A stretch of DNA of 64,000 nucleotides from Planctomycetia bacterium (GCA_036758585.1 DAIOWH010000003.1:6152-70151); one strand, 5' to 3'; counted from the first letter of the stretch, positions 1,443 through 48,873 are shown. Program-made: numbers and translations. The notes: a model not told the origin generated them from the sequence alone.

Positions 1443-1470
1443 GCTCAGTTGATCCGCGAAGAGACAACCA

Positions 1471-1493
1471 CGAATCACACGAATCACACGAAT
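1471..1493 (+). repeat. short tandem repeat (CGAATCACA x2 + CGAAT) abutting/overlapping ATG of downstream gene
   Basis: read directly: cgaatcaca cgaatcaca cgaatg. Confidence 0.5.
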
Positions 1494-2475: not shown

Positions 2476-2965
2476 GAACAAGTTGTGTCGGGCATTGCCA
2501 GCCCAGTTTTCGCTCGGGGGCGGCACAGGCTTAGCAGCCAGACAAGCCCTCCGAAAGTTTTTTGTTGAATTCCACGGTTGCGGCGGGTAACAAGGAGTAG
2601 TTTTAACGGGTCTCTAGACCCGGACCGAGGGGGCGAGTGGTGGCGCGGGATTTCGGTCTGCTGGCGAGGGGCTTGGCGACCGACGGCCTTCATTCCTGCG
2701 CGATCCACACAGTATTTGGTGTTCGGTCGCATTCCGCCCGAAAGCGATAGCTCACGGGGTCGCCGCTGTCGGCGGGTGTGGCACCCTCATTGGTGGCCGG
2801 TGGTTCCCTTCGGGGCACACATCACCATCTTGCGGGTTAGGCAATCCACGCCGCGGCGCGCACGCAGGGCGTCGTTCCCGCACGACCATCGACAACCACC
2901 CACGCAGAGTTTGGGGAATCATGAGTAGTTTTGTGCGCCTGTACAGGGAGTGCTTGGGGGTGTGT

Positions 2966-3108
2966 TGCGCTCCACACTGAAAGGGGTTTGAATTCGTTTA
3001 ACCCGCAGCCGCAGGCGAGGCACAACCAACGCCAGCCATGCCTCGCCTGCGGCTGCGGGTTAAACGACCGAAGCCGACTTCAGACCCTATTCAGTGTGGA
3101 GCGGTACT
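2966..3108. repeat. nested inverted repeat: perfect 26-bp stem / 16-nt loop hairpin (2997-3064) inside a 14-bp outer inverted repeat (2969-2982 / 3092-3105)
   Basis: TTTAACCCGCAGCCGCAGGCGAGGCA ... TGCCTCGCCTGCGGCTGCGGGTTAAA are exact reverse complements; CGCTCCACACTGAA / TTCAGTGTGGAGCG likewise; lies ~100-240 bp upstream of the giant-gene start. Confidence 0.85.
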
Positions 3109-3193
3109 AAGTCGTCCCGACGCGGCCTGTCGTGCATGGTCGCAAGGCGGGGATGCGTGACCGGGTTCAGTTCGAGGGGAAGAAGACGTCACC

Positions 3194-3198
3194 GAGGT
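3194..3198 (+). promoter_or_regulatory. Shine-Dalgarno GAGGT, 6 nt upstream of ATG 3205
   Basis: accGAGGTaagctcATG; same GAGGT core also precedes the second giant gene. Confidence 0.5.
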
Positions 3199-3204
3199 AA
3201 GCTC

Positions 3205-6200
3205 ATGAAGTGGTTCAGAAGACTGCTGTCGCGGAGCGCGGGACAAGAACACAAACGGTCGAGATCGCGCGGGCACGGCGAAACGAGGATGGCCGAGCGC
3301 CGCAGCGCGAGTCCGGGAACCGGCGGCACGCGCCGGCGGCGCACGGGGTCGAGCGACCACGAAGAGCGGCGTCTGGCGAAGCCGCACAAGTTCGCGCTGG
3401 AGCGACTCGAAGAGCGTGTGCTGCTGTCGAGCGACCCGATCAAGACTGCGGCCCTAGATCGACTGCAGACGGCCACCGTGTTGGACCAAGACACGATGAT
3501 CTGGGACAACCAGCAGTCGGACTTCGTTCCGGACGAATGGTTGGTTCGTTTCCGGCTCGACTCGGGATTGACGCCCGACCAGCAACGAGTGCAGGCCAGC
3601 CAGCGGCTTGCCACGCTGGCGCCGAATGCGACGCTGGGCGACTACCTGAACTCGCCGGGCCTGTTCGCAATCCAATCGCCGTCTTCGAGTCCCTCGGCGA
3701 TGGCCGCCCTGTTGAACAGCGCCGCCGATCTGGCGTACATCGAGCCGAACTTCGTCGGCACGTGGCTCGCGGTCCCGAATGATTCGCTGTTTGGCCAGCA
3801 GTGGGCGATGAACAACACAGGCCAGACGGGCGGTACGGTGGACGCCGACATCGATGCCGTGGAGGCATGGGACCTGACGACCGGTTCGGCGAGCGTCGTA
3901 GTTGCGGTGCTCGACTCGGGCGTTGACCTGACTCATCCCGATCTTGCCGCCAACATCTGGGTGAATCCGGGCGAGGTTGCAGGCAACGGGGTGGACGACG
4001 ACGGCAACGGCCTGATCGACGACATCAACGGCTTTGACTTCTTCAGCAACGACAACGATCCGAGCGACCCGCTGGGGCACGGTACTCACGTGGCCGGCGA
4101 CGTCGGTGCGGTGGGGAACAACGGAGTCGGCGTAGCGGGCGTCAACTGGACGACCGACATCATCGCGGTCAAGGTGGGCAATGCCGCGGGTCCGTCGATC
4201 ACCGCCACGACGGCGGGCATCAACTACATCACGGACCTGCGAACGAACCGTGGCATCAACGTGCGGGTGATGAACGCGAGCCTCAACCTGCCGTTCTCGC
4301 AGGCGCAACTGGATGCGATCAATGCCGCCGATGCCGCCGGCATCTTGTTGGCCGCGGCGGCGGGCAACTCAAACTCGAACATCGACGTCGTGCCCACCTA
4401 CCCCGCGAGCTACTCAGCGCCGAACATTATTTCGGTCGCCGCCACGACGCACAACGACGCGAAGGCGAGTTTCTCCAGCTTCGGCGCCAACTCGGTCGAC
4501 TTGGGCGCGCCGGGCGAGGACATCCTCAGTACGGTGCCAACCAGCGGCGCGCTCGGCGACCCGTCGGGCTTCCGGTCGTTGGATGGAACGTCGTTCGCGT
4601 CGCCGATCGTGGCGGGTGCGGCGGCGCTGGGATTCGCGATCAATCCGACCGCGACGCACACTCAAGTGCGCAGCGCGATGCTGAACACGGTCGACCCGGT
4701 CGCTGGGCTGTCTGGTCTGACCGCGACCGGTGGACGACTGAATCTGTACGCCATGCTTCAGGCGTTGCAGCCGTCGCCGCCGCCGTCGGTCACCGTCCCG
4801 GGCAGCGGCGGAATCTATCCGAACTTCGCCGCTCAGAACGAGCCGCAGGTCGTCGTACATCCGCTCGACGCCAGCTATGTCGTGGCGGCTTACAATGATC
4901 GTTCCGAGACCAACCAAAACGGCGTTTCGTATTCCAATGATTTGGGCAACACCTGGTACCACACCGGCGTGCCGTTGCCCGCGCTCGGTACGCTGGCCGA
5001 TACAACGGGCGATGATCCGAGCGTATCGTTCGACTCGCTGGGCCGGCTGTACTACGCATCGAGCGGACTGGAGCCTGACCCCAACGACCCGCTCGCGTTC
5101 CGGGTCGAGCCGAACCAAATCGACGTCAAGTCGTTCCAGCGATCAAACGGCATCTTCGTGAGCCGCAGTGATGATTCGGGCGCGACGTGGGGTGTGAACA
5201 ACACGACCAGCACCGCGACCGGCAGCAAGCCGGCCGTGGCGGTGTTCACAAACACCTTCAGCGGCTCCGGCGACGTGAACTTCGAGACCGGGCCGTTTTC
5301 GATCACCGACCGCACGCCGACCAGTCCGTTCCGCAATCGGGTTTACGTGGTGTGGACGCGGTATCATTCCACGGGCGGCGGCGACATCATGTTCTCCAGC
5401 TCGGCCGACGGGGGCGTTACCTGGAGCACCCCACCGCTGGTGATCACGCAAGGGGTGGCCGGCGCCGGGGCCGGCACCGCGTCCGTCGGCACGACGAACG
5501 TCAACGGCGCCCGCTTAGCCATCGCGCCCAACGGCGATTTGTTCGTGGCGTACAACGCGGGCGGACAGATCAACGTACACCGGTCGCGCGACGCGGGTCG
5601 CACCTGGACCGCGGCGACCACGCCGTTTGGCGCGGGTGCGGCGGTCGCCACCATCGGCAGCCCGCTGCCGAGCGGGAACTTCCGTACCAATGCGTTTCCG
5701 GACATCGAAGTGGGGCTCGATCCCACTACGTCGCTGGCGAATCTGTACCTCGCCGTCGCCGACGACCCCGATCAGATCGGCACCGGCCAGGAAGGCGGCG
5801 ACGTGTACTTCGTGCGGTCGCTCGACGCGGCCACGGTCGCCGACGCCAGCTTTGCGGCGGGCACGACCTGGGGCGCGCCCGTGAAGCTGAACAGCGACGC
5901 GGCGGGCAAGAACCAGACGATGCCGCAGATGGCCGTCGACGAGGTCGGCAACATTGGCGTCGTCTGGTACGACACGCGCAATGACGCCGGCAACCACGAC
6001 CTCGAAGTGTTCCAGCGATCGAGCACCGACGGCGGCGCGATGTTCGCGGCCGACGCCGTGCTGACGGCCGCCTCGTTCGATCCCGACACCGGCCAGTTCG
6101 TGGCCAACGCCAACTTCGGCGACCGCATCGGCCTGGCCGCGTTCGGGGCGACCGGCTACGCCGTGTGGACCGACTCGTCGGTCGGCGAGCAATCGATCTT

Positions 6201-9200
6201 CTTCCAGACGTTCTCGATCGGCACTCCCCCGGCTGTGACTGGGCCGCAAGTAGTCAACATCATGGTCCCCGGCGAGGACCCGCTTACGCCGGGCACGGTC
6301 TACGACCAGACCAATTTTCAGCAGAACTTCGAGCCGGTGAACGGACTGGCCAGCCCGGTCAGGCACCTGGTGATCCAATTCGACAAGCCGCTCGATCCGG
6401 TGTTTGCCGAAGATCCGCGCAACTACGACTTGCGCGCGACCGGCGGCGACGGACTGTACCACGTGCGCGTGGAACTGGCGCCGGGCAGCACGGGAGTCGG
6501 GCCGCTGCCCGCCATGGCTTTCACATCGCTGAACGTGGCTGACGGCGCGCTCGGAGGTCGCCAAACGCTCACCACCGGCTTTGGCGGCAACAGCGACCTC
6601 AAGTTCATCGCGTCGGATCCGGCGACCGCCAGCGGCAAGATTCGGGTTCGTTATGTCGCAGACGGCCTGGACGCGCCGCTCACCGTGGACGTGTTCGAGA
6701 ACGTTGCCAGCGGCACCACCGACATCACGGTGAACCTGGCCACCGATGAGTTCGGCACGGTGACCAGTACAGCGGGCGACGTCTTTACGCTGCTCAATAA
6801 CTTCGTCGGCGACGGCATTCTGGGCACCACCGACGACCGGCAGTTCAAGGTGACGCCGGTGTACAACCCGGCCACGCCGTTGTTTGGGGCGAACGGGCCG
6901 CTGGTTCCGACCGTCACGCTCTACATCGAAGCCGATTCGACCACCGGGCATCAGGCGCCGCTGAACCCAGGCAACTACCGGCTGGCGCTCGAGACCGAGA
7001 TCCTCGCCGACAACGGTAAAAGGCTGATCCCGCAGAACGACCCGGACGACGACGGATCGGCCGGGGCGATCCTCGACACCAACTTTGCCTTCGTCGATCG
7101 CAACGACGACCTGCTCGACGACACGCCGACGACTCGTGACGCCTATTACTTCAAGGTGGTGGTGCCGCCGCCCGATCCGGTCGACCCGACCACCGCGGGC
7201 CTCGTGTTTGTCGACCTCACCGACACGCAGAGCGACGCCCCCGGCGCGACGCCCACGCCCGGCACCGCCTCGAACCCGTTCGATTCGGTGCAAGAGGCGA
7301 TCACTCGCTCTGTGGCCGGCAGCACCGTTTTTGTGCGGTCGAACACCGCGGACCAGCCGTACGTCATCGACTTGGCCGCAGCCGATCCCGACAATCGGAC
7401 GCTGCGCATCGAGCGGCAGATGCGGGTGGTCTTCGAGCGCGGCGTGATCGTGAAACTGCGCGAGCGCAAGATCGAAGTGGCCGACGGCGGCATCCTGATC
7501 ACCCAGGGCGAGTTCAACGATCCGGTGGTGTTCACGTCGCTGACCGACGACTTCCACGGCGGCGACACCAACGGCGACGGCGAAAACACCCGCCCGCAAG
7601 CGGGCGAGTGGGCTGGCGTCGTTTTTCGCGCGAATAGCGACAGCCTGAACTCGCGCGTCGAGTTCACGCAACTGCGCTATGCGGGCGGGTTCGACGCGCC
7701 GTCCAGCGTGTCCAACCGGCAGCGATTCAGCCCGATCCACCTGGAGGGCGACACGACCGGCACGATCGGCTCGACGCCCACCATCGTCTCGAACCTGATC
7801 GTCGATTCGTCCGAGCCGGCGATTTCGGCCGACCTCGCGTCGCTCAGCGCGACCGGGCCGACCGGCGTGCCGAACAGCGGGCCCGACGTCCGCGCCAACC
7901 AGATCGGCCGCACGTCGATCAACGGCATGTTCATTCGCGTCGGCATCGATCCCAGTACCAACTCGTTGCGCACGCTGAACCGCGAGATGCGGCTCGACGA
8001 CAACACGATCACGCACGTGCTCACAGACAACCTGTTCATTGCAACGGGCGGCGTCACCCTGATGCCGGGCGTCAATCTCGAACTGTTCGGGTCGATGATC
8101 GACGTGCGCGACGGCACGTTCTTCGACGCGCTGGGGACGCCGCAGAGTCCGGTGGTGATCAGTTCGCTCAAGGACGACCGCACCGGCGTCGGCCCCAACC
8201 ACCTGGGCGAGCGTCAGGTCGATCAGAGCAACGACGGCAACAAGAGCCTGCAGTCGCTGGGCGGCGCAGCGTACGAGGAGTGGGGCGGCATCCGCTATAA
8301 CGCGAATACGCGCGGCGACCTGTTGAGCGCCACGATCGCGTTCGGCGGCGGCAGCGTGCCGTTTGCCGGCGAGTCGCGGGCATTCAACATGATCGAGGTG
8401 CTGGGCGCGCCGACCGCGACGCCGTCGCGGCCTACGTTCGTCAACATCCGCAACAGTGAGCTGCACCACGCGTCGGGCGCCGCCGTGTGGGTCGAGACCG
8501 GCGATATCAACCTGACCGGCAACATGATCCACGACACCCGCACCGCCGGGTTCGTTGACTTCCCCAACCACCCCGAACGAGTCGACCGCAACATCGGCGC
8601 CGCCGTCTCGGTCGATCCAAACACGCTCGACACCGACAGCTACGAGCCAGGCAACACCTACGAGGCCCTAGTCGAACCCGAAATCGTCGGCAATTCGTTG
8701 TTCCGCAACGTGATCGACGGCCTTGACATTCGCGGCCAACACACCGGCGCCGCGGCCAACGGCTCGATCCGCTCGGTCAACGACGGCTCGCTCTCAGTCT
8801 TTGGCCTGTGGGACGACGACGACATCACTCACGTGCTGCGCCGCGACATTCAGATCGGGTTTGCCAATCCGATCGATAGGCCGGTGCCCGTCAACCTGGC
8901 GGTCGGCCCTGGCGTAGTCGTCAAACTCGATCGGACGGTCGACATCACGGTGCTGGGCAGTTCGACCGGCCGGACGGCTGGCGTCGCGTCGAGCATGCAC
9001 ATCGTCGGCGCCGGCGCCGACCCCGAGGCGGTTCCGCCGCGCGACCCGAACCCCGTGCTGTTCACGTCGACCACCGACGACCTGGCCGAGGTCAGCGGCT
9101 TCGACATCGGCCCCGACCGGGCGCCCGGCACGCTCGGCGTCGACGACCCGGACATCAGCACCGGCCTGCCCAACGGCGTGATCGACGATCCCGGCGAAAT

Positions 9201-12200
9201 CGGCCGCGGCGACGATCGCCCGTTCACCGTCGGCGACGTGATGGACATCGGAGTCACCGTTGGCCCGACAACCGGCGCCCCCGCCGACTGGAACACCATT
9301 ACGTTCGAATACAACTCAGACGACTTGCCCGACGAGTTCTCGGCCGTCAAGGGCGGATCGATTGTGGATCACGCCGAGTTCCGGTTTGCTACCAACGCGG
9401 TCACGGCCAGCAGCATTCCGCGTCACACTCCGTTCGCCGCCGACTTCGTCGACCCCGAAGGACCGACAGGCCAGGGGGTCGATCAGCTTCTGCAGGAGGT
9501 AAACCCCCAGAACACGACCACCGGCGGCCTGCCGATCGTCGGCAACCTCGGGTTCGTGAACACCGGCGATTTCGCGCTCACGGGCAACAACGTCTCGCAC
9601 CAGACCACGATCCAGGTCGGCGGCCGCAGCTATAACCCGGCCATCACCGTCTCGGGCTGGATTGACGGCAGTGACGCGCGCCCCGCGGGCCACGTCGACG
9701 CCCTCACCGGCGGCCAGCGCGACGTCGATTGGTACATGTTCACGGCCGATCCCGGTTCGACCATCTGGGTCGATCTCGACTACATCGGCGCCTCGGACAC
9801 GCTCGACGCACAACTCACGCTGTTCCGGTTTCAGCGGGTCACCACCACGTGCGAGCCTGAGGTGATCGCGTACGACGACACCGACAACCGGGTCGGCGGT
9901 ACGCCCCAAGACCGCGTGTCGAACGCCGGCACCACGACGCAGTCGCTCGGCCTGCACGATCTCGAGCCGTACTACGGCAATGACCCCACGTTCCGGCGCA
10001 ACGAAGATCCGCTGATCGGCCCGATCACCTTGCCGGCCAGCACGTGCCAGGGCAACCAGTACATGATCGCCGTGTCGCCGATCAACTACGACGCCGACAA
10101 CATGCGCGGCCTGAACGGCACGCCCGATACGCCGCTCAGCATCGTGCCGCTCCGCGACGGCGGCTACGCCGTGAACCTGCCGAACTCGTCGGGCCGGGCC
10201 ACGGGCTTCGACGACGTCTCCGAAGGCGCATCGAGCGGCACGGGCCAGTACACGATCGAGCTGCGCACCTTCACGCGCCAGACCGACACCAACATTCCCT
10301 CAGCGCTGGAAGATCCGACCCAGAGCGACGCGCGCATCGACGCCGCCGCGAACCAGTACCTCGACAGCTCGGTCTCGGTGCTGCGCGGCAACGGCGAAGA
10401 CCCGCCCGGCCTTGGCGAGGGATACCTGCAGAACAGCACCACCGACCTCGGTACGTTCAACCCGGTCACCGGCACATGGACGATCTCGGTCACCGACAGC
10501 TCCGGCCCGCTGTTCGCTCAGCCGCCTGCGACGAGCGTATCGTTCTTCTTCGACGCGCCGGCCAGCACGCCCCTGGTCGGCGACCTCGACGGCGACGGCG
10601 ACGACGACCTGGCCACGTTTAGCCCGTCCGAGGCCAGTTGGACGCTCGACCTCGACGGCGACCGGTTCCTGACCGAAGACCGCAACGGCGACTTCTATCT
10701 CGATTCGGGCGAAGACATCAATCAGAACCTGGTGCTTGACACCGACTCGGGCGAGATCGGCGTGTTCTTCGGCGGCGCCGGCGACCTGGCCGTCGTGGGC
10801 GACTGGAACGGCGACGGCGTCGATAAGCTCGGCGTCTTCGGCGACGAAGACCTGAACAACAACAACGTGCTCGATGACGGCGAAGACACCGACGGCGACG
10901 GCGCGATCGACGTCGGCATGTGGACCGTCGATTACAACGGCAACCGCACGATCGAGCGCGGCGAGCGCGGCATCCTGTTCCGGCCCACGACCGGCACGAC
11001 CGCCGATTGGCGGCCGCTGGTCGGCGATTGGAACGGCGACGGCCGAGACGATCTGGCCGTGTACGACCGGTCGACCGGCAACTTCTTCATCGACCTCGAC
11101 GGCGACCGCACGCTTGATTGCGGAAGGGACGTGAACTGTGCGACACCCGACGTGGGCAACGAGCAGTTTGACTTCGGCGCGGGCCTGACCGCCTCGGCAG
11201 TGCCGATCGTCGGCAACTGGGATCCAGTCGGCCCCGCAGCCCGCGACCGCGACGACGACATCGGCGTGTTCGATCCGACGACGGCCACGCTGCGTCGCGA
11301 TCTGAACGGCGACCGCATCTTGCAAGCGGGCACCGAGCAGACGACGTACTTCGGCGCTCCGAACGCAGCCGACCAGCCAGTGGTCGGCGATTTCGGCGCG
11401 GCTGCGACCCCAGTCTTTGGCGTCTATCGGCCCGGGTCGAATGAGTTTTTCCTCGACACCAATGACAACGGCACGAGCGCCGGCGACACAAACCCAACGG
11501 GCTGGACCGGCATGGCCGCCGGGCAGCTTGGCGTGGTCGGCGATTGGAACGGCGGCGGCGTCACCGACGTCGGCGTGTTCACCCCGCGTGGCACGGTCGG
11601 CCCGTTCCTGGGCGATTGGAATATCGACCTCAACGCCAACGGGACCAACGACGAAGTCACCCTGTCGTTCGACCGGTTCCGCTCGATTCCAACGACGGGC
11701 GATTGGGAAGGCGACGGCGACCTGAATGCGGGCGTGTACCTGCCCTCGAGCGGCACGTGGTACCTCGACATCGACGGCAACGCGCCCGATGTGGCTAAGG
11801 CGAACAGTGCGAACCCAACCGCCACGACGGTGGCGACGACGGCCGCGCCGGGATTCCGCGAAGGTCCGTTTCTGATCGGCGCCGCGGGCAACGTGCCAGT
11901 CGCGCGCGATTGGGACGGCGAGGGCACGACCGATCTGGGCACGTACGATCGCCGCCGCGGGGCGTGGACGCTCGACCTCAATAGCAATCGCCGGCTCGAC
12001 GTCTCGGTCGAGACCAACATCGTGTTCGGCGGCGCGGGCGGCATCCCGATGCCGGCCGATTTCGACGGCGACGGCCGCGCGAACCTGGCCGTCTATCACG
12101 AAGATCTAGTGCTGCCGCCGCCCGAGCCGCGTGTGGGGCGCTGGTACTTCGACCTGAACGACAACTTCCAGGTCGATCCGGGCGAGGACGCCAAGCCGTT

Positions 12201-39200: not shown

Positions 39201-42200
39201 GCCCGACGGCCTGACGCTCTACGGCGTGCTCGGCGCCGCCGAGCCTGCCGCAGCGCCGGGCGCTGCGGGCGACTTGGTGGTGATCGACGCGTTCACAGGC
39301 CAGGGCATCGCCGTAGTGGGCAACATCAGCGCGCCCACCGGCCTGACCGGCGTCACGTTCCGCCCGGCGCTAAACGACAACCCAACGGCCTCCACATCGC
39401 TGGGCAGGGCGCTCGAGATCGCTCGCAGCCCGTCCGTCCCGACGCAATCGCTGACGCTCACGCGCGGCGAAGACGACTGGTTCCGAGTTCAAGCGGTCGC
39501 CGACGGCGGCTTGACCGTGCGAGTCGATTTGCGCGATGCGGTGAACGCCGGCAACCTCGATCCGGGTGAACGGGTCGCGGTCGAACTCTACGACGCCGAC
39601 GGCGCGACTCTGCTGGCCACGGGCCTGATCGACGACCTCCGGAGCGCGGTCGACGGCACTGGGTTCGGCGTCGACCTGCGGCACTACCCGAACGATCCCA
39701 CAACGCCTCCTGTACAGGCCGGCGAGTTTTACCTGGTGCGCGTCTTCAGCAGCAGCTTCGACGCCAACGCCGACGGCGTGGACAACGACGCCGACGGCCT
39801 GACCGACGAGGGAGACGAGTTTGTTCCGGGTTCCAACGAGTACGACATCACGGTCCAAAGTGAAGACCGGTTCGACCAGGTGCTGTCGCCGTCTCAGTTG
39901 ATCGCGTCAGAGAGCGCCGGCGCGGCCGAGCTGTTCGTGTTGGACGCCGCCACAGCCGCGGCCACACTCGCGTCGGCCCTCGCGCCCAATAGCGCGCCCG
40001 ACAGCCTGGCGTTCCATCCGAGCGGCCTGCTCTATGCCGAGCGGACCAATGGTGCGCTGCACGAACTGATGGTCATCAATCCAGAATCGGGCGTGCAGAC
40101 AACCATCGACGGCGCCATTCCCGACGCGGCCGACGTCAACATCGCCGCCGGCGCGACGATCACGGCGCTGGCTGTACATCCCAGAACCTTCCAGTTGTTC
40201 GGCGCGGTCGTCAACCCAGGCACTCCCGCGACTTCAACGCTCGTTACGATCGACCCCAACAACGGGCGAGTCACACCGGTCAACCCGATTCCCACGCTCA
40301 CGGGAGTGGGCGCCATCGGCGGACTGGCGTTCGATGCAACGGGCACGATCTTGTACGGCGTGAGCACGATCTTCGGCGGCATCTTGGTTACGCTGGACAC
40401 GACGACCGGCGTGGCCACGACCATCGGATCGAACGGCCTCGGCGTGCAAGACTTCTCCGGCCTGACGTTTGACTCGACGGCCGGCGCGACCGGTACGCTG
40501 TACGGTGTCGTATCCGCCTCGGATCCTGCGCTGCCGGGTCGGTTGGTGACCTTTGACGTAGCGACTGGCGCGGCGACATTGGTCGGCAACACCGGCCTTG
40601 CGGTGACTGGCGTCGCAGCCCGTCCGGCGCGATTCAGCAACGACATTCGGCAACTGGCCACGCCACTCGGTCCGATCAACAGCCGTAGCGAGGCCGTCTT
40701 GTCGCTGCACGAAGGCGATGAGGATTGGTACAGCTTTTCGATGGCCGTCGCCGGCCGGCTCGAAGTCCGGCTCGATCTGGACGACTTCAACCGCAACTCC
40801 ACGTTCGACGCGGCCGAGCAACTGAAGTTCGAGGTGATTGACGCGGTCTCGGGCGCCGTGCTGGCGTCGAGTGCGATCGCGGGCCGCATCGACGCCACGC
40901 TCGACGACGACCTGAACTCCGTGCCGTTCCCGACCGACGCGGGCGACGATGGGTTCAGCATCGTGGTCGACACGCTGCGGTTTGAGGCCGACCGGCTGCT
41001 CATGGTCCGCGTGTTCGGGCCGGCGAATGAAGTGAACCTCTACGACCTGAACATCAGCGTCGCGTTGCCCGACTCGCGCGGCCCGCGCGTGACTACGGTC
41101 ACACCGGTGCACACGTCGTTCGTAGCGGCGTCGCCGACTCAGCTCGTGATCGATCTGAACGAGAATCTCGACGCCGTGCTGGCCGCGACCGCGGCAAGCT
41201 ACCGCCTGATTCGGTCGGGCGGCGACGGCGTCATCCCCGGCGGCCCGGCGGCCGACGTCGACGTGGCCGGTACGTTCGGCGCCATCGCGTACACGCCCGG
41301 CACACAGGCAACACGAACGATCAACCAGGCTGCGGCGAACGACGCGCTTGACTACACTGCGCGAGCGGCGGGCACCGACGGGAACCGCATTCGCATCCAG
41401 TATCGCACCCCGGCCCCGAATCGGCCGACCGAGACCGTGACGGTCGACGCGACCACCAACTTCCCGTTCATCAACATCATCGTCGACCTGGCCACCAACG
41501 CGGGCGGCACCAGCACCAGCAGCGCCGCGGCCGTCCGCCAGGCGATCCAAACTACTCCGGCCGCCTCGGCCCTGATCGACGTCCAGTTCACCGTGGGCAA
41601 CAACGGCACGGGGACGGTCACGGCGCTCGGGTTGACCGCGCTGCAAGGCGGCGCCGCGTCGCGCGTCGCCATCCCGATCACCGGCGGGCTGCCCGACGAC
41701 CTCTACCAGTTCTCGATCAACTCGACCAGCGGCGTGCGCGACGAACTCGGCAACGCCCTCGACGGCGAGAACCCCGGCTCACTGCCCGACGCCGACCCGA
41801 CAACCGGCCTGCCGTCGGGCGATGCGTTCGTGGGCGGCGACTTTGTCAGCCTGTTCACGATCGATACCGTGCAGCCTACGATCATCGACGTGGTCGATGT
41901 CATGCCCGACCCCGGCACGGCGGCGGTAAGCACCATCGACGTCGAGCTGTCTGAGGTCGTCGACCTGGCGACGTTCGACTTTGGCGATGTTTCGCTGACT
42001 CGCGACGGCGGCTCGGTCGCGCTCGACAACACCGTCACCGTGGCTCGCGTGGGAACGACGCTGTTCTACCGCATCAGCGGGCTCGACAGCTTCACCGCGC
42101 CCGACGGCGCCTATGTGCTGTGCGTCGACGCCACGATGATCCAGGACCTCGCGGGCAACGCCGGCGTGAACCCGGCGCTGCCGGCCGACCGGTGCGACGA

Positions 42201-45200
42201 CTTCACCACCGCCGTGCCGCCGCGCGTGGTCGATGTGGTGGACGTCACTCCCGACCCACGCAACACGGCGGTCGCCACGATCGATGTGGTGTTGTCGGAG
42301 GTCGTCACCGGCTTCGGCCGTGAGCACCTCATGCTGACTCGCGACTCGGCCCCCGTCGCCCTGGACAACACCGTCACTGTCGCCCAGGTGGGTGCCACGA
42401 CCACGTATCGCATCAGCGGCCTCGACAGCTTTACGGATGAGGCGGGCACGTTCGACTACGTGCTCACAGTCGACGCCACTGGTTTCATGGACCTGAACGG
42501 CAACGTCGGCCTGGTCGCGGGCGGCGGGTCCGACACGTGGCGGTTCGATGACGAAGCGCCGGCCACACCGTCCACGCCCGACCTCACGGCGGCTACGGAC
42601 TCGGGAGTCTCGAACTCAGACAATATCACCAACTTCAGTCGGCCGACGTTCACGGGCACTGCTGAGGCGAACAGCACGGTGCGAGTCTTCGCGGACAACG
42701 GCGCAGGCCCCGTGGAGTTGGGCCTCACCACCGCCGACGGCATGGGCGTGTGGACCTTCCCGGTGCCGTCGGTCACCCCGTTCGCTCCGGCGGGCGGTGG
42801 GCTGCCCGACGACGTCTACGACATCACCGCCACGGCGACCGACGCCACGGGCAACGCCAGCGGCCAGTCCGCCGCGCTGCAGGTGACGATCGACACCCAG
42901 ATTGCCACGCCGTCGGTACCGAACCTGGTGGACGCCAGCGACACTGGTACATCGAACACGGACAACATCACCAACGACAACACGCCAACGTTCGATGGCA
43001 CAGCCGAGGCCGGCGCCACGGTGACCCTGACGTCGAGCGTTGCGGGTGTACTGGGCACGACGAACGGCGGCGTGTGGATGTTCACGGCCGGCATCCTGGC
43101 CGACGGAACACACAACATTACAGCCCAGGCGACCGACCTGGCCGGCAACACCAGCTTGGTCACGGCCGTGCTCGCCGTCACGATCGACACGGTGGCGCCG
43201 CCGGTCCCCTCCACGCCCGACCTGACTGACGCATCAGACAGCGGGTCGTCTGTCGTGGACAACATCACGAACGATCGGACGCCGGCGCTGAACGGCACCG
43301 CGCAAGCGGGCATCGAAGTGCGAGTGTTGGAAGGCGCCACCCTCCTGGGGAGCGGCATCGCCAACCTGTTGGGAGTCTGGACAATCACAACCAGTTCGCT
43401 CTCGGCGACTGCAGCAGGGGTGCAGCACAACATCACCGCCCGCACGCGCGATGTGGCAGGCAACGAGAGCGCGGCGTCGCCGGCCCTGACAGTAACGATC
43501 GACGACGACGCCGTCGCGCCGGTCTTCACCGCGATCGCGGACGACACCGGCAGGGACGCGAACGATCGGATCACCCGCGACCAGAACCTGCTCCTAAGCG
43601 GCACCGCCGAGCCAGGCGCTACAGTCGCAGTCACCCGCGTCGCCGTGGGTCCGGCTGGGACTGCCGTCGCCGACAGTATGGGCCAGTGGACGTTGGACCT
43701 GACGGCCACCACCTTGCCGGCGGGCGTGCACGATTTCACTGCGACTCAGACCGACGTGGCCGGCAACCCGAGCGCGACATCGGCTACGTTCCAAGTGACC
43801 ATCGACCGCACGGCGCCGCCAACCCCCAACACGCCCAATCTGGTGGACGCCAGTGACACGGGCAGTTCGAGCACCGACAACTACACCAACGCTACGACGC
43901 CGACGTTCGACGGCGGCATCGGTTCGGTTGAGGCGGGTGCGACGGTCGACGTGTTCATCGACGGCAACCAGGTCGCGACGACGATCGCCAACGGATCGGG
44001 TGTTTGGACGGCGACGGTCGCCACTCCGGTCAGTGCGGGGCCGCATTCGGTGCGGGTGCGGGCTACCGACGCGGCAGGCAACGCCAGTTCGTTCAGCAAT
44101 GTCCTGTCGATCCTGATCGATACGACCGCTCCGGGGGCGCCGACCACTCCTGATCTCACCGCGGCCAGCGATTCCGGTCGGCTTGCCGTGGACGACATCA
44201 CGAACGACACGACGCCGACGGTGGTGGGCACGGCCGAAGCCGGTTCGAGCGTCGAAGTGTTTGTCGACAACGTGTTCCGCGGCGCGGCGTTGGCGAACGG
44301 GTCCGGCGTTTGGAGCTTCACGATCACGCCCGCGCTTGTACCGGACGGCGACTATGACATCACGGCTCGGGGGCGCGACCTGGCCGGCAACGTCGGGCCG
44401 TTCAGCTCGGCCCTGACGATCACGATTGACACGGCCAATCCGGGCGCTCCGGCGACCCCGGACCTGACCGCTGGGACCGACACCGGCGCCGCAAGCGACG
44501 ATAACGTAACGGCCAACAACCGGCCGACGTTCAGAGGCCTCGACCTTGCGGTGGAAGCCGACGCGATCGTTGAGTTGTTCTCGGGCGCGACTTCGTTGGG
44601 CGCCACGACAGCCAGCGGAACCGGAGCGTGGACCCTGACCTCCACGGTTACGCTGGCCGACGGCCTGCACGCGATTAGGGCCACGGCCACCGATACGGCG
44701 GGCAACACGAGCGACGTGAGTGTGCCCGACCTCGTCATCCGGATCGACACGGCGAGGCCGGCGGCGCCGGTGAATCTCAACCTGGCGTCCGCTAGCGACA
44801 GCGGCCGCTCCTCGACCGACGACGTGACGAACGTCACGATGCCGACCATCGACGGGCCCGCAGGCTCGGTAGAACCTCTGGCCACCGTGCGAGTGTTCGC
44901 GGACGGCGTAGCGATGGGCTCGACCATTGCGGATGCGACAGGTGCGTGGAGTCTCGCGATCGGCACGGCACTGACCAACGGTGTGCGTGCGATCACCGCC
45001 GCAGCCGTCGATGCGGCGGGCAACGTGAGTGATCTGAGTACGGCGATCAACCTCACGATCGACACGACGGCCCCGTCGGCCCCGTCGGTCGCTGACCTTG
45101 CCGCCGCGAGTGATTCGGGCAGTTCGAGCACCGACAATGTGACCAACGATACGACTCCGACGTTCAGCGGCTCGGCCGAAGCAAACGCTACGGTGCAGGT

Positions 45201-48200
45201 ATTCGTTGACTCGACTCTGGTCGGCACGACGCTCGCCAGCGCCGCTGGCGTGTGGACGTTCACAACAGGCGCGTTGGCAGGCGGGTCGCGCGTGGTCTCG
45301 GTGCGGGCCGAAGACGCCGCGGGCAATCCGAGCGGACCGAGCGGGGACCTGACGGTCGTCATCGACATTATCGCTCCGACCGCGCCGTCGCGGCCTGGGC
45401 TGAATGCACCGAGCGATACGGGCACGGCCGGCGACGACATCACCAGCGACAACACACCCACGCTGACCGGCACGGCCGAACCCGGCGCCACGGTACGGCT
45501 CTTTGTGGGCGGCATCTTGGCGGGATCGGTGCAAGCAGACTCGCTGGGTGCGTGGAGCGTGACGATCTCGACCCCGCTGGTCGACGGCGTCCATGCGTTC
45601 ACGGCCACGGCCACCGACGCGGCCGGCAACACCGGCCCGGCGAGCGTGGCGCGCGACGTGACAATCGACACGGCGCCGCCGTCGCAGCCGGACCAGCCGG
45701 ATTTGGCCGCCGCCAGCGACACCGGCCGGTCGATGACCGACAACATCACCAACGACACGACGCCGACGCTCGGCGGCACGGCGCAGGGCGCCTTCGTGGA
45801 AGTGCTGGTCGACGGCAACCTGATCGGCGTGGCGATCGTCGGCGCGCTGGGTCAGTGGACGCTGACGCCCACGACTGCCCTGGCGACCGGTCAGCGAGTG
45901 ATCGTCGCTCGCGGCGGAGACGCCGCGGGGAACATCAGCGCACCTAGCGTGGCTCTTTCGATCACCATCGACACGGCCGCTCCGGCCGTTCCGACCACGC
46001 CCGACCTGAACGCGTTGAGCGATTCGGGACTGGCGAACGACGACGACGTGACGCGCGTGGCGACGCCGACGTTCGACGGCACAGCCGAAAACGGCGCAAC
46101 CGTCGAACTGTTCGTCGACGGTGTTTCCGCCGGCACCACGCAGGCGGGCCTGGGCGGCTCATGGAGCTTTACGGCGCCGGTCGCTCTGAGCGACGGCGTA
46201 CACGCGGTGACCGCGCGGGCGATCGACGCCGCGGGCAACGAGAGTGTTCAGACGGCGGCGTTGTCTGTCACGGTGGACACGGTCGCGCCGTCGGCCCCGA
46301 CGGGGCTCAACCTGGACGATGCGAGCGACACGGGGAGCTCCAACATCGACGAGATCACGAACAATACGACGCCCAGCTTGTCGGGTTCGGCGCTGGCCGA
46401 CAGCGTTGTCGAAGTCTTTGCCAACGGGGCCACCTTGGGCACGACCACGGCGACCGCCGGCGGTTCGTGGACGCTCCAAGTCGCCTCGGCGCTTGGCGAA
46501 GGGAATCAGTTGATCAGGGCGACGGCGACCGACCTGGCCGGCAACACCAGCAATCTCAGCGCGACGCTCGCCATCGTGATCGACACGACGCCGCCTGGCC
46601 AGCCGGGTGCGCCCGACCTCGTAGCGGCCACCGATACGGGTGCGTCGAGCAGCGACAACATCACAAGAGACAGCACGCCGTCGTTCGCGGGCGACGCCGA
46701 GGCGGGTTCTACGGTCCGAGTGTTGCGAGCGACGGCCGGTGGTCCGGTGGAAGTGGCTCGCACTACGGCGAACAGTCCGTGGAACGTGACCCTGGCGACG
46801 CCGCTCGTGGACGGCCTATACAGCATCACCGCGACGGCGACCGATGTGGCGGGCAACGAGAGCGTCGAGAGCAATCCGTTGGCGGTGACGATTGATACGG
46901 CCAGCCCGGCGGCTCCTTCGACGCCGAGTCTCGATTCGGCCAGCGACACCGGCCGGTTGAACAACGACCGAGTTACGAACGACCTTACGCCGACGTTGAC
47001 CGGGACATCGGAAGCCAACGCCACGGTGGAGTTGTTCCGCATGGATGCGACGGGGAACGTGTCGCTCGGCACAACGGTGGCGAGCGACACCGGGGCTTGG
47101 AGCTTCACGCCAACGACGAACCAACCGACCGGCGCCGACGTCAAGTTCGTGGCCCGGGCCACCGATCTGGCGGGCAACGTCGGCGGCCTGAGTTCGGCGT
47201 TGACGATAACCATTGACACAACGCCGCCTGCTACGGCGCCGAGCGTCGCTACGCTCAACCCCGCCAGCAACTCGGGCGACCCGGCGGACAACATCACGAA
47301 CTTCCGCATGCCCCAGTTTACCGGCACCGCATCGGACGGCACGACCATAGAGATCGGTTCCGATCGCGATGGCGTAATCTGCCGTGCCATCGTCGCCAGC
47401 GGAGTGTGGACCTGCACTCCGTCGACGCCGCTGAGCGACGGCGTTCACAACATCCGGGTGAGTGCCAGCGACGACGCCGGCAACCCGAGTGCTCCGTCGC
47501 CGGCCGTGGCGATCACGATCGATTCGACGCCGCCAACGGTCATCGCGCTCGACCCGCCGATCGGCGGCGTCACCGGCGGCGGAACACTGACGGAAATCAC
47601 GGTGTTCTTTAGCGAGGCGCTCAGCCGGACGACGGCCACGAACGTAGCCAACTACAAGCTTGTCGGCGCCGACGGCGGCACAGTGGCCGTCACGCCGGTC
47701 TTTGACGAGAGCAATCCGATGGTGGTCCGCCTCTGCCGCAACGCGACCTGCGACCTGCCGTTCGCGCCCGACACCTACACGCTGACCGTCATCGGTGCGA
47801 CGTCGGTAACTGATCGCGCCGGCAACAAGCTGGCTGGAGGCAACGACTTCACGGCCCGGTTTACTCACAGCGCCTCGCCCGAACAGCCGCGGCCGATTGA
47901 CACGCTCATTCGGGCCCGCGGCGACAAGCGGACGACGACCAGTCTGTATGTTGCGTTCAGCCAGCAAATGAACGCCGCTCAGGCCGCCACGGCCGGCAAT
48001 TACGAGGTCCGGAGCTCCGGCAAGGACAAGACCCTCGGCACTCCCGACGACAAGTTCGAGCAGTTCATTGCCGACTACTTCCCGGCCGACGGTGTTCAAC
48101 CGGCACACGTAGTGTTGAATTTTGCACCAGGGTTCAAGAACGGGCAGGCGGTTCAATTGACCATCAAGTCGTTTGAAACCGAGGACGGCGATCTGCTGGA

Positions 48201-48621: not shown

Positions 48622-48861
48622 TCGGCAATATGTTGTAAGAATGCAACGCGCCGCTAGGTTGGGTGGGATGTACCAGCACGGCGGGTGGGCGGTGGCCTGC
48701 GAGGCGGCGTGTCGGCCGTTGGACTACAGCCTGAGAATGGAACTGTCGAAGTTCCAGCATGTCTCCGGGGGGAGGCTCTCCACGCCTGACGTTTTGCGGG
48801 CGGCCTTGATCGCCCGTGTTCTGCTTCCGCCGGTTACGGACAGGGGCGTTTTTTGGGAATC

Positions 48862-48866
48862 GAGGT
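48862..48866 (+). promoter_or_regulatory. Shine-Dalgarno GAGGT 8 nt upstream of ATG 48874
   Basis: tcGAGGTccaacaaATG. Confidence 0.5.
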
Positions 48867-48873
48867 CCAACAA

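What the first reader, a model, noticed from the sequence alone, without database searches (positions are those of the whole stretch)
3205..48621. Intact 45.4-kb single gene encoding a ~15,100-aa protease-headed giant protein
A stop-free frame of 15,175 codons (3094-48621) is far beyond chance. Recognisable domains run along its whole length, so this is one real gene and not an ORF-caller fusion. Domain order is: S8 protease, BNR propeller, beta-helix, FG-GAP, NHL propellers, MAM-like, LamG, more than 16 PPC domains, vWA, second BNR propeller, 16 tandem Ig domains. Proteins of this size are rare in bacteria and are usually repetitive adhesins. This one is instead a mosaic of very different folds with a catalytically intact subtilase at its tip. 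That suggests an extracellular fibre carrying an active protease, or an autoprocessing giant pro-protein.
Basis: partly seen in the sequence, partly recalled or inferred. Interest (0 to 1): 0.85.

Follow-up and report, generated by a model that had tools for sequence, protein, structure and literature searches.

The report
Giant protease-headed planctomycete surface protein gene
This is a real, intact 45-kb bacterial gene for a 1.56-MDa exported, calcium-binding surface protein with a working-looking protease near its front end; it is a very large example of the already known "giant genes" of Planctomycetes, and it sits next to a sister giant gene that carries a different protease.

Summary
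A single stop-free frame (3094-48621; best start ATG 3205, 15,138 aa) has in-frame coding periodicity in 300/300 windows. It has no near-identical DNA repeats. A 96%-identical contig from a related strain shows purifying selection and only 3n indels in coding sequence.

- Confirmed: S8 (D237/H292/S463 intact), BNR, FG-GAP, NHL, LamG and 16 Ig domains.
- Real but divergent: vWA, and about 14-17 PPC-like modules with EF-hand-type loops.
- Only probable: the second BNR, the beta-helices and the MAM domain.
- Missed: four five-bladed propellers and a recurrent ~120-aa module.

1. The N-terminus carries the planctomycete LEPR-XLL / "cell-surface export" leader, a named class of giant proteins.
2. 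A second giant gene (48874 to beyond 64000) follows immediately. It is a co-linear paralogue with a matrixin (M10) head instead of S8, and NIDO where gene 1 has vWA.
3. About half the protein is internally repeated, so it is less of a pure mosaic than described.

Giant genes, and S8-headed giants, are already described in PVC bacteria. I rate this a new member of a known kind, of moderate interest mainly for the head-swapped tandem pair.

The parts
2968..3103 (+). Nested perfect or near-perfect palindrome about 100 nt upstream of the start codon. It is probably a dispersed REP/MITE-like element and not a dedicated regulator.
   Evidence: The inner arms are 29 nt and 100% complementary; the outer arms are 29 nt and 86% complementary. 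RNA fold gives dG -104 kcal/mol, z = -13. A 94% identical copy lies at L001:14-132, and the short-read contigs L001 and L002 break at the element. The Rfam hits are sub-threshold hairpin noise.
3205..48621 (+). Giant gene 1: 15,138 codons plus a TAA stop.
   Evidence: frame and GC3; no collapsible repeats; independent contig, dN/dS 0.25
3205..3453 (+). Export-type leader. aa 1-62 are strongly basic (19 K+R) with no hydrophobic core, followed by the LEPR-XLL motif FALERLEERVLLSS at aa 63-83.
   Evidence: NCBIfam NF012209 LEPR-XLL scores 19.4 bits against a cutoff of 17. Maximum KD15 is 0.8, against 2.4 for a Sec signal peptide in L026. The motif fits the published RRLxxExLExRxLLA cell-surface motif. 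The Pfam PF07595 HMM itself did not fire.
3454..3771 (+). Prodomain-like segment (aa 84-189) ending in ...LAYIEPNF, just before the start of the mature S8 domain.
   Evidence: Its position relative to the mature N-terminus of deseasin MCP-01 in the alignment. Related planctomycete S8 proteins carry Fervidolysin_NPro-like prodomains at this position. No Pfam hit here, so this assignment is inferred.
3772..4779 (+). Peptidase S8 catalytic domain (aa 190-525). Catalytic residues: D237 (nt 3913-3915), H292 (4078-4080), S463 (4591-4593); oxyanion N388.
   Evidence: Pfam PF00082 E 2e-45. PDB 3vv3 deseasin MCP-01 E 1.4e-84 and thermitase E 1e-33, with the D/H/S/N motifs aligned. Residue positions.
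4822..6054 (+). BNR/sialidase-type beta-propeller 1 (aa ~540-950).
   Evidence: Pfam BNR_2 33.8 bits against a cutoff of 31.4. Four Asp-boxes at aa 577, 655, 733 and 794.
7102..8904 (+). Probable right-handed beta-helix region (aa ~1300-1900).
   Evidence: Pfam Beta_helix E 0.008, sub-threshold. It is 33% identical to gene 2 aa 606-956. In gene 2, a weak NosD hit (E 0.004, aa ~1029-1099) lies just downstream of that segment, and the above-cutoff Beta_helix hit (aa ~1718-1878) lies further on, in the part that parallels gene 1's second beta-helix around aa 6758-6818.
10402..14574 (+). FG-GAP/VCBS-type repeat arrays (aa ~2400-3170 and 3540-3790), with a PPC-like domain at aa 3209-3323.
   Evidence: Pfam FG-GAP_3 E 2e-11, FG-GAP E 3e-9, PPC E 1.7e-4. 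The rA HMM hits aa 3209-3323.
17674..21123 (+). NHL-type beta-propeller repeats (aa ~4824-5973).
   Evidence: Pfam NHL E 2e-10. NCBIfam ScyE/ScyF partial hits. An internal repeat family with 10 units.
22633..22944 (+). MAM-like domain (aa ~6477-6580); borderline.
   Evidence: Pfam InhA-like_MAM 26.8 bits against a cutoff of 26.9.
26812..27159 (+). Laminin_G_3 / concanavalin-like lectin domain (aa 7870-7985).
   Evidence: Pfam E 3.3e-15.
27526..40923 (+). Block of 13 divergent PPC-type modules ('rA', ~107 aa, each with an EF-hand-like D.D.NG.LD..E loop). Interspersed are four ~260-aa five-bladed beta-propellers ('rB' at nt 28051-28815, 29302-30075, 38488-39300 and 39832-40569).
36403..37176 (+). 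Divergent vWA domain with an intact MIDAS motif (VVIVDESGSM ... LVTD), aa 11067-11324.
   Evidence: Motif. Missed by Pfam. Homologues at 35-43% identity carry PF00092/PF13519. The family profile hits solved vWA domains from collagen VI, integrin alpha2 I and SpaC at E 4e-6 to 1e-3.
37192..38484 (+). Probable second BNR-type propeller (aa ~11330-11760).
   Evidence: Asp-box-like motifs at aa 11427 and 11691. Similarity to propeller 1 is weak and confined to the blade motif, E 6e-4. The 45.6%-identical region in gene 2 gets a sub-threshold Pfam BNR_2 hit, E 4e-6.
42589..47529 (+). Array of 16 tandem Ig-like domains (Big_13 / 'Ca_tandemer'), aa 13129-14775, with a period of ~101-106 aa.
   Evidence: Family HMM finds 16 copies. 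Pfam Big_13 E 3e-175. NCBIfam Ca_tandemer E 9e-87. PDB SiiE 2yn3 E 2e-18. DNA copies are only 60-79% identical.
47530..48618 (+). C-terminal region (aa 14776-15138): a Big_5 Ig-like domain, then a unique ~250-aa tail with no recognisable sorting signal.
   Evidence: Pfam Big_5 E 3e-8. The only homologue is the 97%-identical fragment P0137. The single-sequence AF2 model is unusable, pLDDT 39. No TM, LPxTG or PEP-CTERM.
48622..48873 (+). 252-nt spacer between the two giant genes. It is non-coding but highly conserved.
   Evidence: It is 98% identical in L019 and holds the only two 1-nt indels. It contains two further stop codons in the frame of gene 1 (three counting the gene's own TAA). A weak terminator-like hairpin lies at 48795-48818.
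48874..64000 (+). Giant gene 2, at least 5,042 codons and truncated by the window end. Order: LERLEERVLLA leader, matrixin (M10) head (nt ~49447-49719), beta-helix, LamG, PPC-like modules, NIDO, BNR-like region, rB propeller. It is a co-linear paralogue of gene 1.
   Evidence: Open frame. Start with GAGG upstream. Pfam Peptidase_M10 E 4e-9, Beta_helix, Laminin_G_3, NIDO E 2e-19. MMP-1 catalytic domain E 7e-8, with HExxHxxGxxH and the Met-turn aligned. Co-linear BLASTP matches to gene 1, up to 45.6% identity over 1,045 aa. dN/dS 0.165. In-frame periodicity in 98/98 windows.

Best explanation
Gene 1 is a genuine, intact, selected gene of a Planctomycetota bacterium, about 66% GC, found only in metagenome-derived assemblies. 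It encodes a 15,138-aa, very acidic, Ca2+-binding protein that belongs to the class of giant planctomycete proteins carrying the N-terminal basic + LExLExRxLL[SA] ('LEPR-XLL' / 'planctomycete cell-surface') export leader.

Proposed mechanism (inferred unless marked as shown):
1. The leader directs the protein out of the cytoplasm by the still uncharacterised planctomycete route used by this motif class.
2. The subtilase folds with the help of the ~100-aa prodomain-like segment, then cleaves it off. This would remove the leader and activate the protease.
3. The remaining ~14,600 aa form an elongated, Ca2+-stiffened, disulfide-braced chain of propellers (BNR, NHL, FG-GAP and small five-bladed ones), lectin-like and PPC-type beta-sandwiches, and a MIDAS-containing vWA domain. 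These would bind polymeric substrates or surfaces.
4. The C-terminal array of 16 Ig domains acts as an extender stalk, as in giant Ca-dependent adhesins.
5. The net effect is a surface-associated or secreted 'protease on a long multivalent binding arm' that attaches to complex protein/glycan matrices and digests them.

Gene 2, immediately downstream, is a duplicated version of the same chassis. It carries a matrixin metalloprotease head, and NIDO in place of vWA, so the locus supplies two complementary proteolytic specificities.

Shown here: gene integrity, purifying selection on the sampled parts, domain identities, intact catalytic motifs, the leader class, and paralogy of the two genes.
Inferred: export, prodomain cleavage, topology, substrates and co-expression.
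For: - Integrity and selection.
- Leader: NCBIfam LEPR-XLL above its cutoff. The same design occurs on gene 2 and on other planctomycete S8 proteins L029, L006 and L007.
- Literature on the leader: it is a putative export signal of cell-surface proteins. In Tuwongella, 20 of 52 such proteins were detected by proteomics, including two with N-terminal serine-protease domains.
- S8 head: E 1e-84 to collagenolytic deseasin MCP-01, with D/H/S/N conserved.
- Extracytoplasmic features: 42 Cys, almost all in close pairs; at least 8 strict EF-hand loops plus the rA consensus loop; net charge about -1046 and no TM segment.
- Binding modules.
- Ig extender similar to SiiE / Ca_tandemer adhesins.
- Paralogous M10-headed gene 2.
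- Planctomycete context: DUF1501 neighbour; the relatives carrying the same LE.R.LL leader come from Planctomycetaceae MAGs (L005-L007), although S8-only relatives also occur in other phyla.
Against: - There is no expression or proteomic evidence for this gene.
- Independent sequence covers only the last 1.9 kb of gene 1.
- No orthologue of the head or of the full architecture was found in 185,579 species-representative genomes or in the metagenome collection. The best matches are at most 56% identical and cover the S8 domain only. Conservation of the whole 45-kb gene is therefore unproven.
- The Pfam Planc_extracel HMM and the Fervidolysin-prodomain HMM did not fire on gene 1.
- No secretion or anchoring genes or motifs were found.
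- Which end is cell-proximal is unknown.
- The substrate is unknown. The 'collagenase-like' best hits may simply reflect what is in the PDB.
Confidence: 0.6

Rival explanations
1. Autoprocessing polyprotein. The giant is a precursor that its own S8 head (and, for gene 2, the M10 head) cuts at inter-domain linkers into many independent extracellular proteins. Under this reading the 45-kb ORF is a delivery format and not a functional fibre.
For: - An S8 with a prodomain-like segment implies at least one autocleavage.
- West-Roberts et al. proposed exactly this for S8/C39-bearing Omnitrophota giants.
- The domain types are heterogeneous and could function separately.
Against: - No recurrent linker or cleavage motif was noticed between modules, but I did not search for one systematically.
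- The 16-domain Ig array with Ca-tandemer signatures is typical of intact extender stalks.
- Co-linear conservation of module order between the two paralogues suggests that order matters, which is unnecessary if the pieces are released.
- There is no direct evidence either way.
Confidence: 0.2
2. Primarily structural or adhesive surface fibre (holdfast, aggregation or matrix component). Here the protease head serves only in maturation, for example leader or prodomain removal or release from the cell, and does not attack external substrates.
For: - The adhesin-like composition: Ig stalk, vWA with MIDAS, lectin-like and propeller modules, Ca-binding.
- Reviews assign planctomycete giants to cell-surface structure and calcium binding.
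Against: - The S8 domain is closest to a true secreted degradative enzyme, at E 1e-84.
- Thousands of shorter relatives pair this S8 type with binding domains in ordinary secreted proteases.
- The paralogue carries a different, unrelated protease class at the same position. That is hard to explain if the head were only a maturation device.
Confidence: 0.15
3. Artefact or decaying gene: a chimeric mis-assembly, or a pseudogene whose long open frame is a by-product of high GC content.
For: - High-GC DNA gives long spurious ORFs. Antisense shadow ORFs of up to 1,458 aa occur here.
- Most of gene 1 lacks an independent assembly.
- Short-read contigs break at its 5' edge.
Against: - P of about 1e-159 for the open frame.
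- Correct codon periodicity in 300/300 windows.
- Recognisable domains from end to end.
- No repeats above 80% identity.
- 3n-only indels and dN/dS of 0.17-0.25 in the independently assembled part.
- The contig breaks are explained by a dispersed palindromic repeat that lies outside the gene.
Confidence: 0.03

Closest known systems
Planctomycete 'giant genes' / LEPR-XLL (NCBIfam NF012209, 'LEPR-8K') proteins carrying the RRLxxExLExRxLLA cell-surface export motif (Pfam PF07595; Studholme 2004; Kohn 2016; Mahajan 2021)
   Same: - The N-terminal basic stretch plus the LExLExRxLLS motif.
- Extreme length.
- Extracellular-type and Ca-binding domains.
- A planctomycete genomic context.
- Protease domains directly after the leader also occur in Tuwongella (trypsin type) and in loci L029, L006 and L007 (S8).
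   Different: - At 45.4 kb it exceeds the 36.2-kb maximum reported for the 29 genomes of Kohn 2016, although 10-20k-aa planctomycete proteins have been reported since.
- It occurs as a tandem pair of co-linear paralogues with different protease classes as heads.
- The Pfam PF07595 HMM itself does not score on it.
Deseasin MCP-01-type secreted subtilases (S8 + C-terminal binding domains; PDB 3vv3)
   Same: - The catalytic domain is homologous at E 1.4e-84 with identical triad motifs.
- The general logic is prodomain, then S8, then substrate-binding domains.
- Thousands of 600-1,750-aa relatives pair this S8 with PKD, FN3, PPC, Calx-beta or cadherin domains.
   Different: - Those enzymes are about 10-25 times shorter.
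- They use classical signal peptides.
- They carry one to a few binding domains, not ~14,600 aa of them.
Giant Ca2+-dependent fibrillar (RTX/T1SS) adhesins such as SiiE, LapA and MpIBP ('Ca_tandemer' repeats)
   Same: - A long tandem array of Ca-stabilised Ig-like domains (NCBIfam Ca_tandemer E 9e-87; SiiE 2yn3 E 2e-18).
- vWA and lectin-type ligand-binding modules.
- A very acidic protein.
   Different: - No RTX nonapeptide block (one GGxGxD only).
- No recognisable C-terminal T1SS signal.
- No T1SS genes in the window.
- The Ig array lies at the C-terminal end.
- It carries an enzymatic protease head.
Omnitrophota giant proteins ('Archaeovorins') with N-terminal S8 or C39 peptidase domains (West-Roberts et al. 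2023, bioRxiv 10.1101/2023.11.21.568195)
   Same: - A PVC-superphylum giant ORF with an S8-like domain near the N-terminus.
- Autocatalytic processing has been proposed.
   Different: - Those proteins have many TM segments, SecA-like domains and glycosyl-transferase/hydrolase domains, and are linked to predation.
- None of these features is seen here.
Matrixin (M10) metalloproteases (for gene 2)
   Same: HExxHxxGxxH, the Met-turn and the downstream DDxxGIxxxYG motif all align to the MMP-1 catalytic domain (Pfam E 4e-9; PDB E 7e-8).
   Different: - No cysteine-switch propeptide is evident.
- It is fused to at least 4,700 aa of the same chassis as gene 1.

Membership tests
LEPR-XLL domain-containing giant proteins (NCBIfam NF012209) | The N-terminal LEPR-XLL motif scores above the curated cutoff. 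| tested here: met
   aa 63-83, 19.4 bits against a cutoff of 17. Gene 2 has the same LERLEERVLL string, but the model was not reported for it at E<=0.01.
LEPR-XLL domain-containing giant proteins (NCBIfam NF012209) | A very long, multi-thousand-residue protein with the motif near the N-terminus. | tested here: met
   15,138 aa, with the motif at aa 63-83.
Planctomycete cell-surface export motif proteins (Pfam PF07595 Planc_extracel; RRLxxExLExRxLLA) | A match to the Pfam HMM or the consensus motif. | tested here: inconclusive
   The sequence LERLEERVLLS fits the published consensus. PF07595 was not reported even at E<=10. It did score weakly (E 8e-4) on the analogous leader of L029.
Planctomycete cell-surface export motif proteins | Actual export to the cell surface. 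| not testable with these tools
   Only indirect signs are available: paired Cys, Ca loops and no TM segment.
Peptidase S8 (subtilase) | A Pfam PF00082 match above the gathering score. | tested here: met
   155.7 bits against 21.8, E 2e-45.
Peptidase S8 (subtilase) | The Asp-His-Ser triad in that order, plus the oxyanion Asn, aligned to the catalytic positions of solved subtilases. | tested here: met
   D237, H292, S463 and N388 align with the catalytic motifs of thermitase and deseasin.
Peptidase S8 (subtilase) | Proteolytic activity and prodomain autoprocessing. | not testable with these tools
   The prodomain is inferred only from its position. There is no Pfam prodomain hit.
T1SS / RTX giant adhesins | A tandem Ca-stabilised Ig extender. 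| tested here: met
   16 Big_13 / Ca_tandemer domains.
T1SS / RTX giant adhesins | A C-terminal block of RTX nonapeptide (GGxGxD) repeats. | tested here: not met
   There is a single GGxGxD in the whole protein, at aa 9666.
T1SS / RTX giant adhesins | Adjacent ABC transporter, MFP or TolC-type genes. | tested here: not met
   The window neighbours are DUF1501, a PD40/TolB-like propeller, and giant gene 2. Only 3 kb upstream is visible.
von Willebrand factor A domain | MIDAS DxSxS...T...D and homology to vWA domains. | tested here: met
   DESGS and LVTD are invariant in family alignment A3. The profile hits only vWA/I-domains in the PDB, at E 4e-6 to 1e-3. Pfam VWA itself gives no hit.
PPC (bacterial pre-peptidase C-terminal) domain | Homology to Pfam-verified PPC domains. 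| tested here: met
   hhalign of A1 against A6: 90% probability, E 1.5e-6. Direct Pfam hits are only weak and cover 3-4 copies.
BNR/sialidase propeller (second copy, aa 11330-11760) | Multiple Asp-boxes and a Pfam BNR_2 match. | tested here: inconclusive
   Two Asp-box-like motifs. Pfam gives only E 0.18. BLASTP to propeller 1 gives E 6e-4. The paralogous region in gene 2 scores 26.9 bits against a cutoff of 31.4.
Matrixin M10 (gene 2 head) | A PF00413 match above the cutoff, with HExxHxxGxxH and the Met-turn. | tested here: met
   36.9 bits against 24. Alignment to MMP-1 covers the motif and the Met-turn.

The most novel reading that the evidence does not exclude
The locus could represent a modular 'chassis plus exchangeable warhead' design. 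In this reading, a conserved giant binding and extender scaffold, exported through the LEPR-XLL route, has been duplicated in tandem. It was then re-armed with unrelated protease classes (serine S8 versus zinc M10), with cassette swaps at fixed internal positions (vWA versus NIDO). The result would be a single-polypeptide, cellulosome-like proteolytic machine for attacking complex extracellular matrices. If so, head and cassette exchange among LEPR-XLL giants would be a general way for planctomycetes to diversify surface enzymes.
Probability: 0.25. Interest if true: 0.65.

Novelty: new member of a known kind. Interest (0 to 1): 0.42.

Why it matters
Planctomycete giant genes are numerous, metabolically costly and almost entirely uncharacterised. 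This example has three useful properties.

- It is unusually clean: an intact frame, no collapsible repeats, and evidence of selection.
- It is unusually interpretable: it has catalytically intact heads of two different protease classes on paralogous scaffolds.
- The heads are small domains that can be expressed on their own, which gives the pair a testable handle on what such giants do.

It also bears on what the LEPR-XLL leader does, because prodomain autocleavage would predict removal of the leader. The locus is also a practical warning for annotation. The second giant ORF was invisible to an ORF lister because it runs off the window, and antisense shadow ORFs of more than 1,000 aa overlap both genes.

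Tried and rejected
- PDB sequence searches of the whole protein in ~5,000-aa pieces gave almost nothing beyond S8 and the SiiE-type Ig match. Two of these calls first failed because I gave out-of-frame coordinates; one search failed the same way.
- The single-sequence AlphaFold model of the C-terminal 363 aa was unusable (pLDDT 39), so I draw no conclusion about an anchor domain.
- The afdb50 fold library was unavailable.
- Scans with the head against species-representative genomes and against metagenomes found only S8-domain relatives. Neither the source genome nor an orthologous giant turned up.
- The homology search with the head returned only proteins under 1,750 aa. This may be a property of that tool's candidate list, so I do not count it as evidence that long relatives are absent. 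The representative library does contain related proteins of up to 5,619 aa.
- The cluster lookup cannot take a sequence this long. The 107.7-kb and 73.7-kb contigs implied could not be retrieved.
- Promoter and terminator consensus scans were uninformative.
- The Rfam hits on the upstream hairpin are sub-threshold miRNA-hairpin noise.
- I first suspected the upstream hairpin might regulate the giant gene. A second copy 6.5 kb away, together with contig breaks at it, points to a dispersed repeat instead.
- Reading the two giants as one gene with read-through is rejected. There are three in-frame stops counting the gene's own TAA, 1-nt indels are tolerated only in the spacer, and gene 2 has its own SD, ATG and leader.


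Full report
OBSERVATION. The window contains a + strand ORF at 3094..48621 of 15,175 codons without a stop. From base composition alone, the probability of no stop in that many codons is about 1e-159. The most plausible start is ATG 3205, with GAGG 7 nt upstream. That gives 15,138 aa, ~1.56 MDa, pI ~4.1 and a net charge of about -1,046.

Long ORFs are common in 66%-GC DNA. Antisense 'shadow' ORFs of up to 1,458 aa overlap this gene. The giant frame, however, shows proper coding periodicity (GC1/2/3 = 0.63/0.51/0.85). Position 3 is the GC-richest in 300 of 300 sliding windows, which excludes hidden compensating frameshifts or non-coding patches.

Internal repeats are old. Protein copies are mostly 55% identical or less. 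No DNA repeat exceeds ~80% identity over 100 nt or less, and TRF reports no tandem array. So the length is unlikely to come from repeat mis-assembly.

INDEPENDENT SEQUENCE. The C-terminal 363 aa have a single database relative, a 97%-identical fragment on a JGI metagenome contig. That contig (L019) aligns to window 46676-54543 at 96.2% identity.
- The three indels inside coding sequence are 3, 6 and 9 nt.
- The only two 1-nt indels lie in the 252-nt spacer after the TAA stop.
- The stop itself is conserved.
- dN/dS is 0.25 for the last 647 codons of gene 1 and 0.165 for the first 1,889 codons of the next gene, with no premature stops.

This is good evidence that both reading frames are maintained by selection and that they are two genes. 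It covers only 4% of gene 1.

ANATOMY OF GENE 1 (protein coordinates from ATG 3205).
- aa 1-62 are strongly basic with no hydrophobic core (maximum KD15 of 0.8, against 2.4 for a true Sec signal peptide in L026).
- aa 63-83 (FALERLEERVLLSS) match NCBIfam's LEPR-XLL ('LEPR-8K') domain above its cutoff.
- A prodomain-like stretch follows, then a subtilase domain (Pfam E 2e-45). Its closest solved relative is the collagenolytic deseasin MCP-01 (3vv3, E 1.4e-84). D237, H292, S463 and the oxyanion N388 lie in the canonical motifs aligned to thermitase.
- Downstream, in order: a BNR propeller with four Asp-boxes; a probable beta-helix; FG-GAP arrays with a PPC-like domain; NHL-type propeller repeats; a borderline MAM-like domain and a weak second beta-helix; and a clear Laminin_G_3 domain.
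- The 4,500-aa stretch that Pfam leaves dark (aa ~8,100-12,600) resolves into 13 copies of a ~107-aa module and four copies of a ~260-aa module.
  - The 107-aa module is a divergent PPC domain (hhalign 90%, E 1.5e-6 against Pfam-verified PPC domains). It carries an inserted canonical EF-hand-type loop, D.D.NG.LD..E.
- Within this block sits a vWA domain with an intact MIDAS motif. Pfam misses it. It is established through 35-43%-identical homologues annotated as VWA, and through a family profile that hits only vWA/I-domains in the PDB.
- After it comes a probable, weakly supported second BNR-type propeller.
- A further ~120-aa module recurs at least nine times along the chain.
- The C-terminal part is an array of exactly 16 Big_13 / 'Ca_tandemer' Ig domains resembling those of SiiE. 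Then come a Big_5 domain and a unique tail with no recognisable sorting signal.
- Cysteines (42) occur almost entirely in close pairs.
- There is no TM segment, LPxTG or PEP-CTERM, and only one GGxGxD motif.

1. The leader. The basic stretch plus LExLExRxLL[SA] is the planctomycete-specific motif RRLxxExLExRxLLA. It was proposed by Studholme et al. [quoted passage not shown] In Tuwongella immobilis, 52 proteins carry it, 20 were detected by proteomics (8 of them only in the SDS-soluble envelope fraction), and two have N-terminal serine-protease domains (PMC8567305). LEPR-XLL giants are also annotated outside the phylum, for example a ~8,000-aa Vibrio protein (PMC10868602).
2. A second giant gene. 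Frame 1 reopens after three stops, and a new gene starts at ATG 48874 (GAGG upstream) with its own LERLEERVLLA leader. It runs off the window end after at least 5,042 codons. ORF listing had missed it for that reason, and all the 'minus-strand ORFs' downstream are its antisense shadows. Its head is a matrixin-type zinc protease (Pfam M10 E 4e-9; MMP-1 E 7e-8, with HExxHxxGxxH and the Met-turn aligned). The rest is co-linear with gene 1, from beta-helix through the LamG region and PPC-like array to the BNR-like and small-propeller region, with up to 45.6% identity over 1,045 aa. NIDO (E 2e-19) sits where gene 1 has vWA. The two genes are therefore tandem paralogues of one scaffold that carry different protease heads and one swapped internal cassette.
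3. Repetitiveness. By my rough estimate, about half of gene 1 belongs to internal repeat families. 'Mosaic rather than repetitive' is only half true.

CONTEXT AND RELATIVES. Upstream lie a DUF1501 gene, which I recall (from general knowledge, not tested here) as being especially abundant in Planctomycetes, and a PD40/TolB-like propeller. The same genes occur on short metagenome contigs that break just before the giant. The source genome is not among 185,579 species representatives, and no orthologue of the head-plus-BNR architecture was found there or in the metagenome collection.

The design 'leader - prodomain - S8 - PPC/Big_5 arrays' does recur in Planctomycetaceae MAGs, at sizes from 672 aa to more than 4,376 aa (L007, L006, L029). 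The internal modules occur in about 350 representative proteins at E<=1e-10; the best is a 5,619-aa fragment with 13 matching stretches.

In the literature, Planctomycetes are known to be rich in giant genes, the largest among 29 genomes being 36,239 bp (PMC5177795). Proteins of 10,000 aa or more are 'frequently detected' in PVC phyla including Planctomycetota, and 7,478 public proteins exceed 10,624 aa. N-terminal S8 domains on Omnitrophota giants have already prompted the autoprocessing idea (bioRxiv 10.1101/2023.11.21.568195). A 2025 review still describes the functions as 'apparently' surface structure, transport or calcium binding (PMC12673574).

MECHANISM. I think the most likely reading is an exported, Ca2+-stiffened, disulfide-braced surface or extracellular protein in which a degradative protease is coupled to a very long multivalent binding arm and an Ig extender.
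- Shown: the domain identities, the intact catalytic motifs, the leader class, selection on the sampled parts, and paralogy of the two genes.
- Inferred: export by the leader, removal of leader and prodomain by S8 autocleavage, which end faces the cell, the substrates, and co-expression of the two genes.

Two unrelated protease classes occupy the same position on paralogous scaffolds. This argues that the heads are functional payloads acting on external substrates and not mere maturation devices. Conserved module order argues mildly against wholesale self-dicing. Both rivals remain open (see Rival explanations). Both heads have collagenolytic enzymes as their best solved relatives, and PPC, vWA and NIDO are matrix-binding domain types. 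That suggests proteinaceous matrices as targets, but PDB sampling bias makes this a lead only.

VERDICT. By kind, this is a new, very large and clean member of the known class of planctomycete LEPR-XLL giant surface proteins. It is not a new type of system. The moderately novel element is the tandem, co-linear, head-swapped pair (S8 versus M10; vWA versus NIDO). I did not find this described in the papers I read, and it makes the function experimentally approachable.

Noticed in passing
window 48874-64000 (+): A second giant gene of at least 5,042 codons, cut by the window end. It has its own LERLEERVLLA leader and a matrixin (M10) head. It is a co-linear paralogue of gene 1. The ORF listing did not show it because it runs off the window.
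   Followed up: yes
window 2968-3103; L001:14-132: A 136-nt nested palindrome (dG -104 kcal/mol, z -13) about 100 nt upstream of the giant's start codon. A 94%-identical copy lies ~6.5 kb upstream on contig L001, and two short-read contigs end at it. It looks like a dispersed REP/MITE-like element that breaks assemblies.
   Followed up: partly
window 48622-48873: The 252-nt spacer between the two giants is more conserved between strains (98%) than the flanking coding sequence (96-97%). It also contains a weak terminator-like hairpin at 48795-48818. It may be a regulatory region, or the observation may just reflect the small sample.
   Followed up: partly
window 36403-37176 versus 60280-60900 (gene 2 aa ~3818-4045): At the equivalent position of the two co-linear paralogues, between the last PPC-like module and the BNR-like propeller, gene 1 has a vWA domain and gene 2 has a NIDO domain. 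This is a clean cassette swap.
   Followed up: partly
window 27526-40923 (the rA modules): The PPC-type modules carry an inserted 12-residue loop matching the canonical EF-hand Ca2+ loop (D.D.NG.LD..E; lanmodulin E 2e-4). I did not see this PPC-plus-EF-loop combination in the Pfam-verified PPC domains of L029 and L006.
   Followed up: partly
window 5515-8571, 12106-15960, 23194-27570, 51595-54537 (- strand): Antisense 'shadow' ORFs of 980-1,458 aa lie inside both giant genes (GC1 ~0.82, GC3 ~0.63). They have no family hits and are a trap for gene callers in this high-GC genome.
   Followed up: yes
window 63-2475; L001:171-3569: The upstream neighbours are DUF1501 and a PD40/TolB-like beta-propeller. 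On contig L001 they are preceded by FtsH and an unannotated 430-aa protein. There is no obvious secretion system, and any link to the giant genes is unknown.
   Followed up: no
L029:7952-21022: A planctomycete ORF on a 199-kb metagenome contig that exceeds 4,376 aa and is cut by the fetch limit. It has a LESRHLLA leader (weak Pfam Planc_extracel hit) and PPC, with its S8 domain only at aa ~700, followed by a regular CopC/Big_5/PPC repeat unit of ~1,000 aa. It is another protease-bearing giant, with a different layout.
   Followed up: partly
window 3439-3465 (aa 79-87, DPIKTAALDRL): Directly after the LEPR-XLL motif there is a T-A-A-L string. It resembles the di-alanine LapG-type processing site of T1SS adhesins. 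This is recalled from memory only and was not tested.
   Followed up: no
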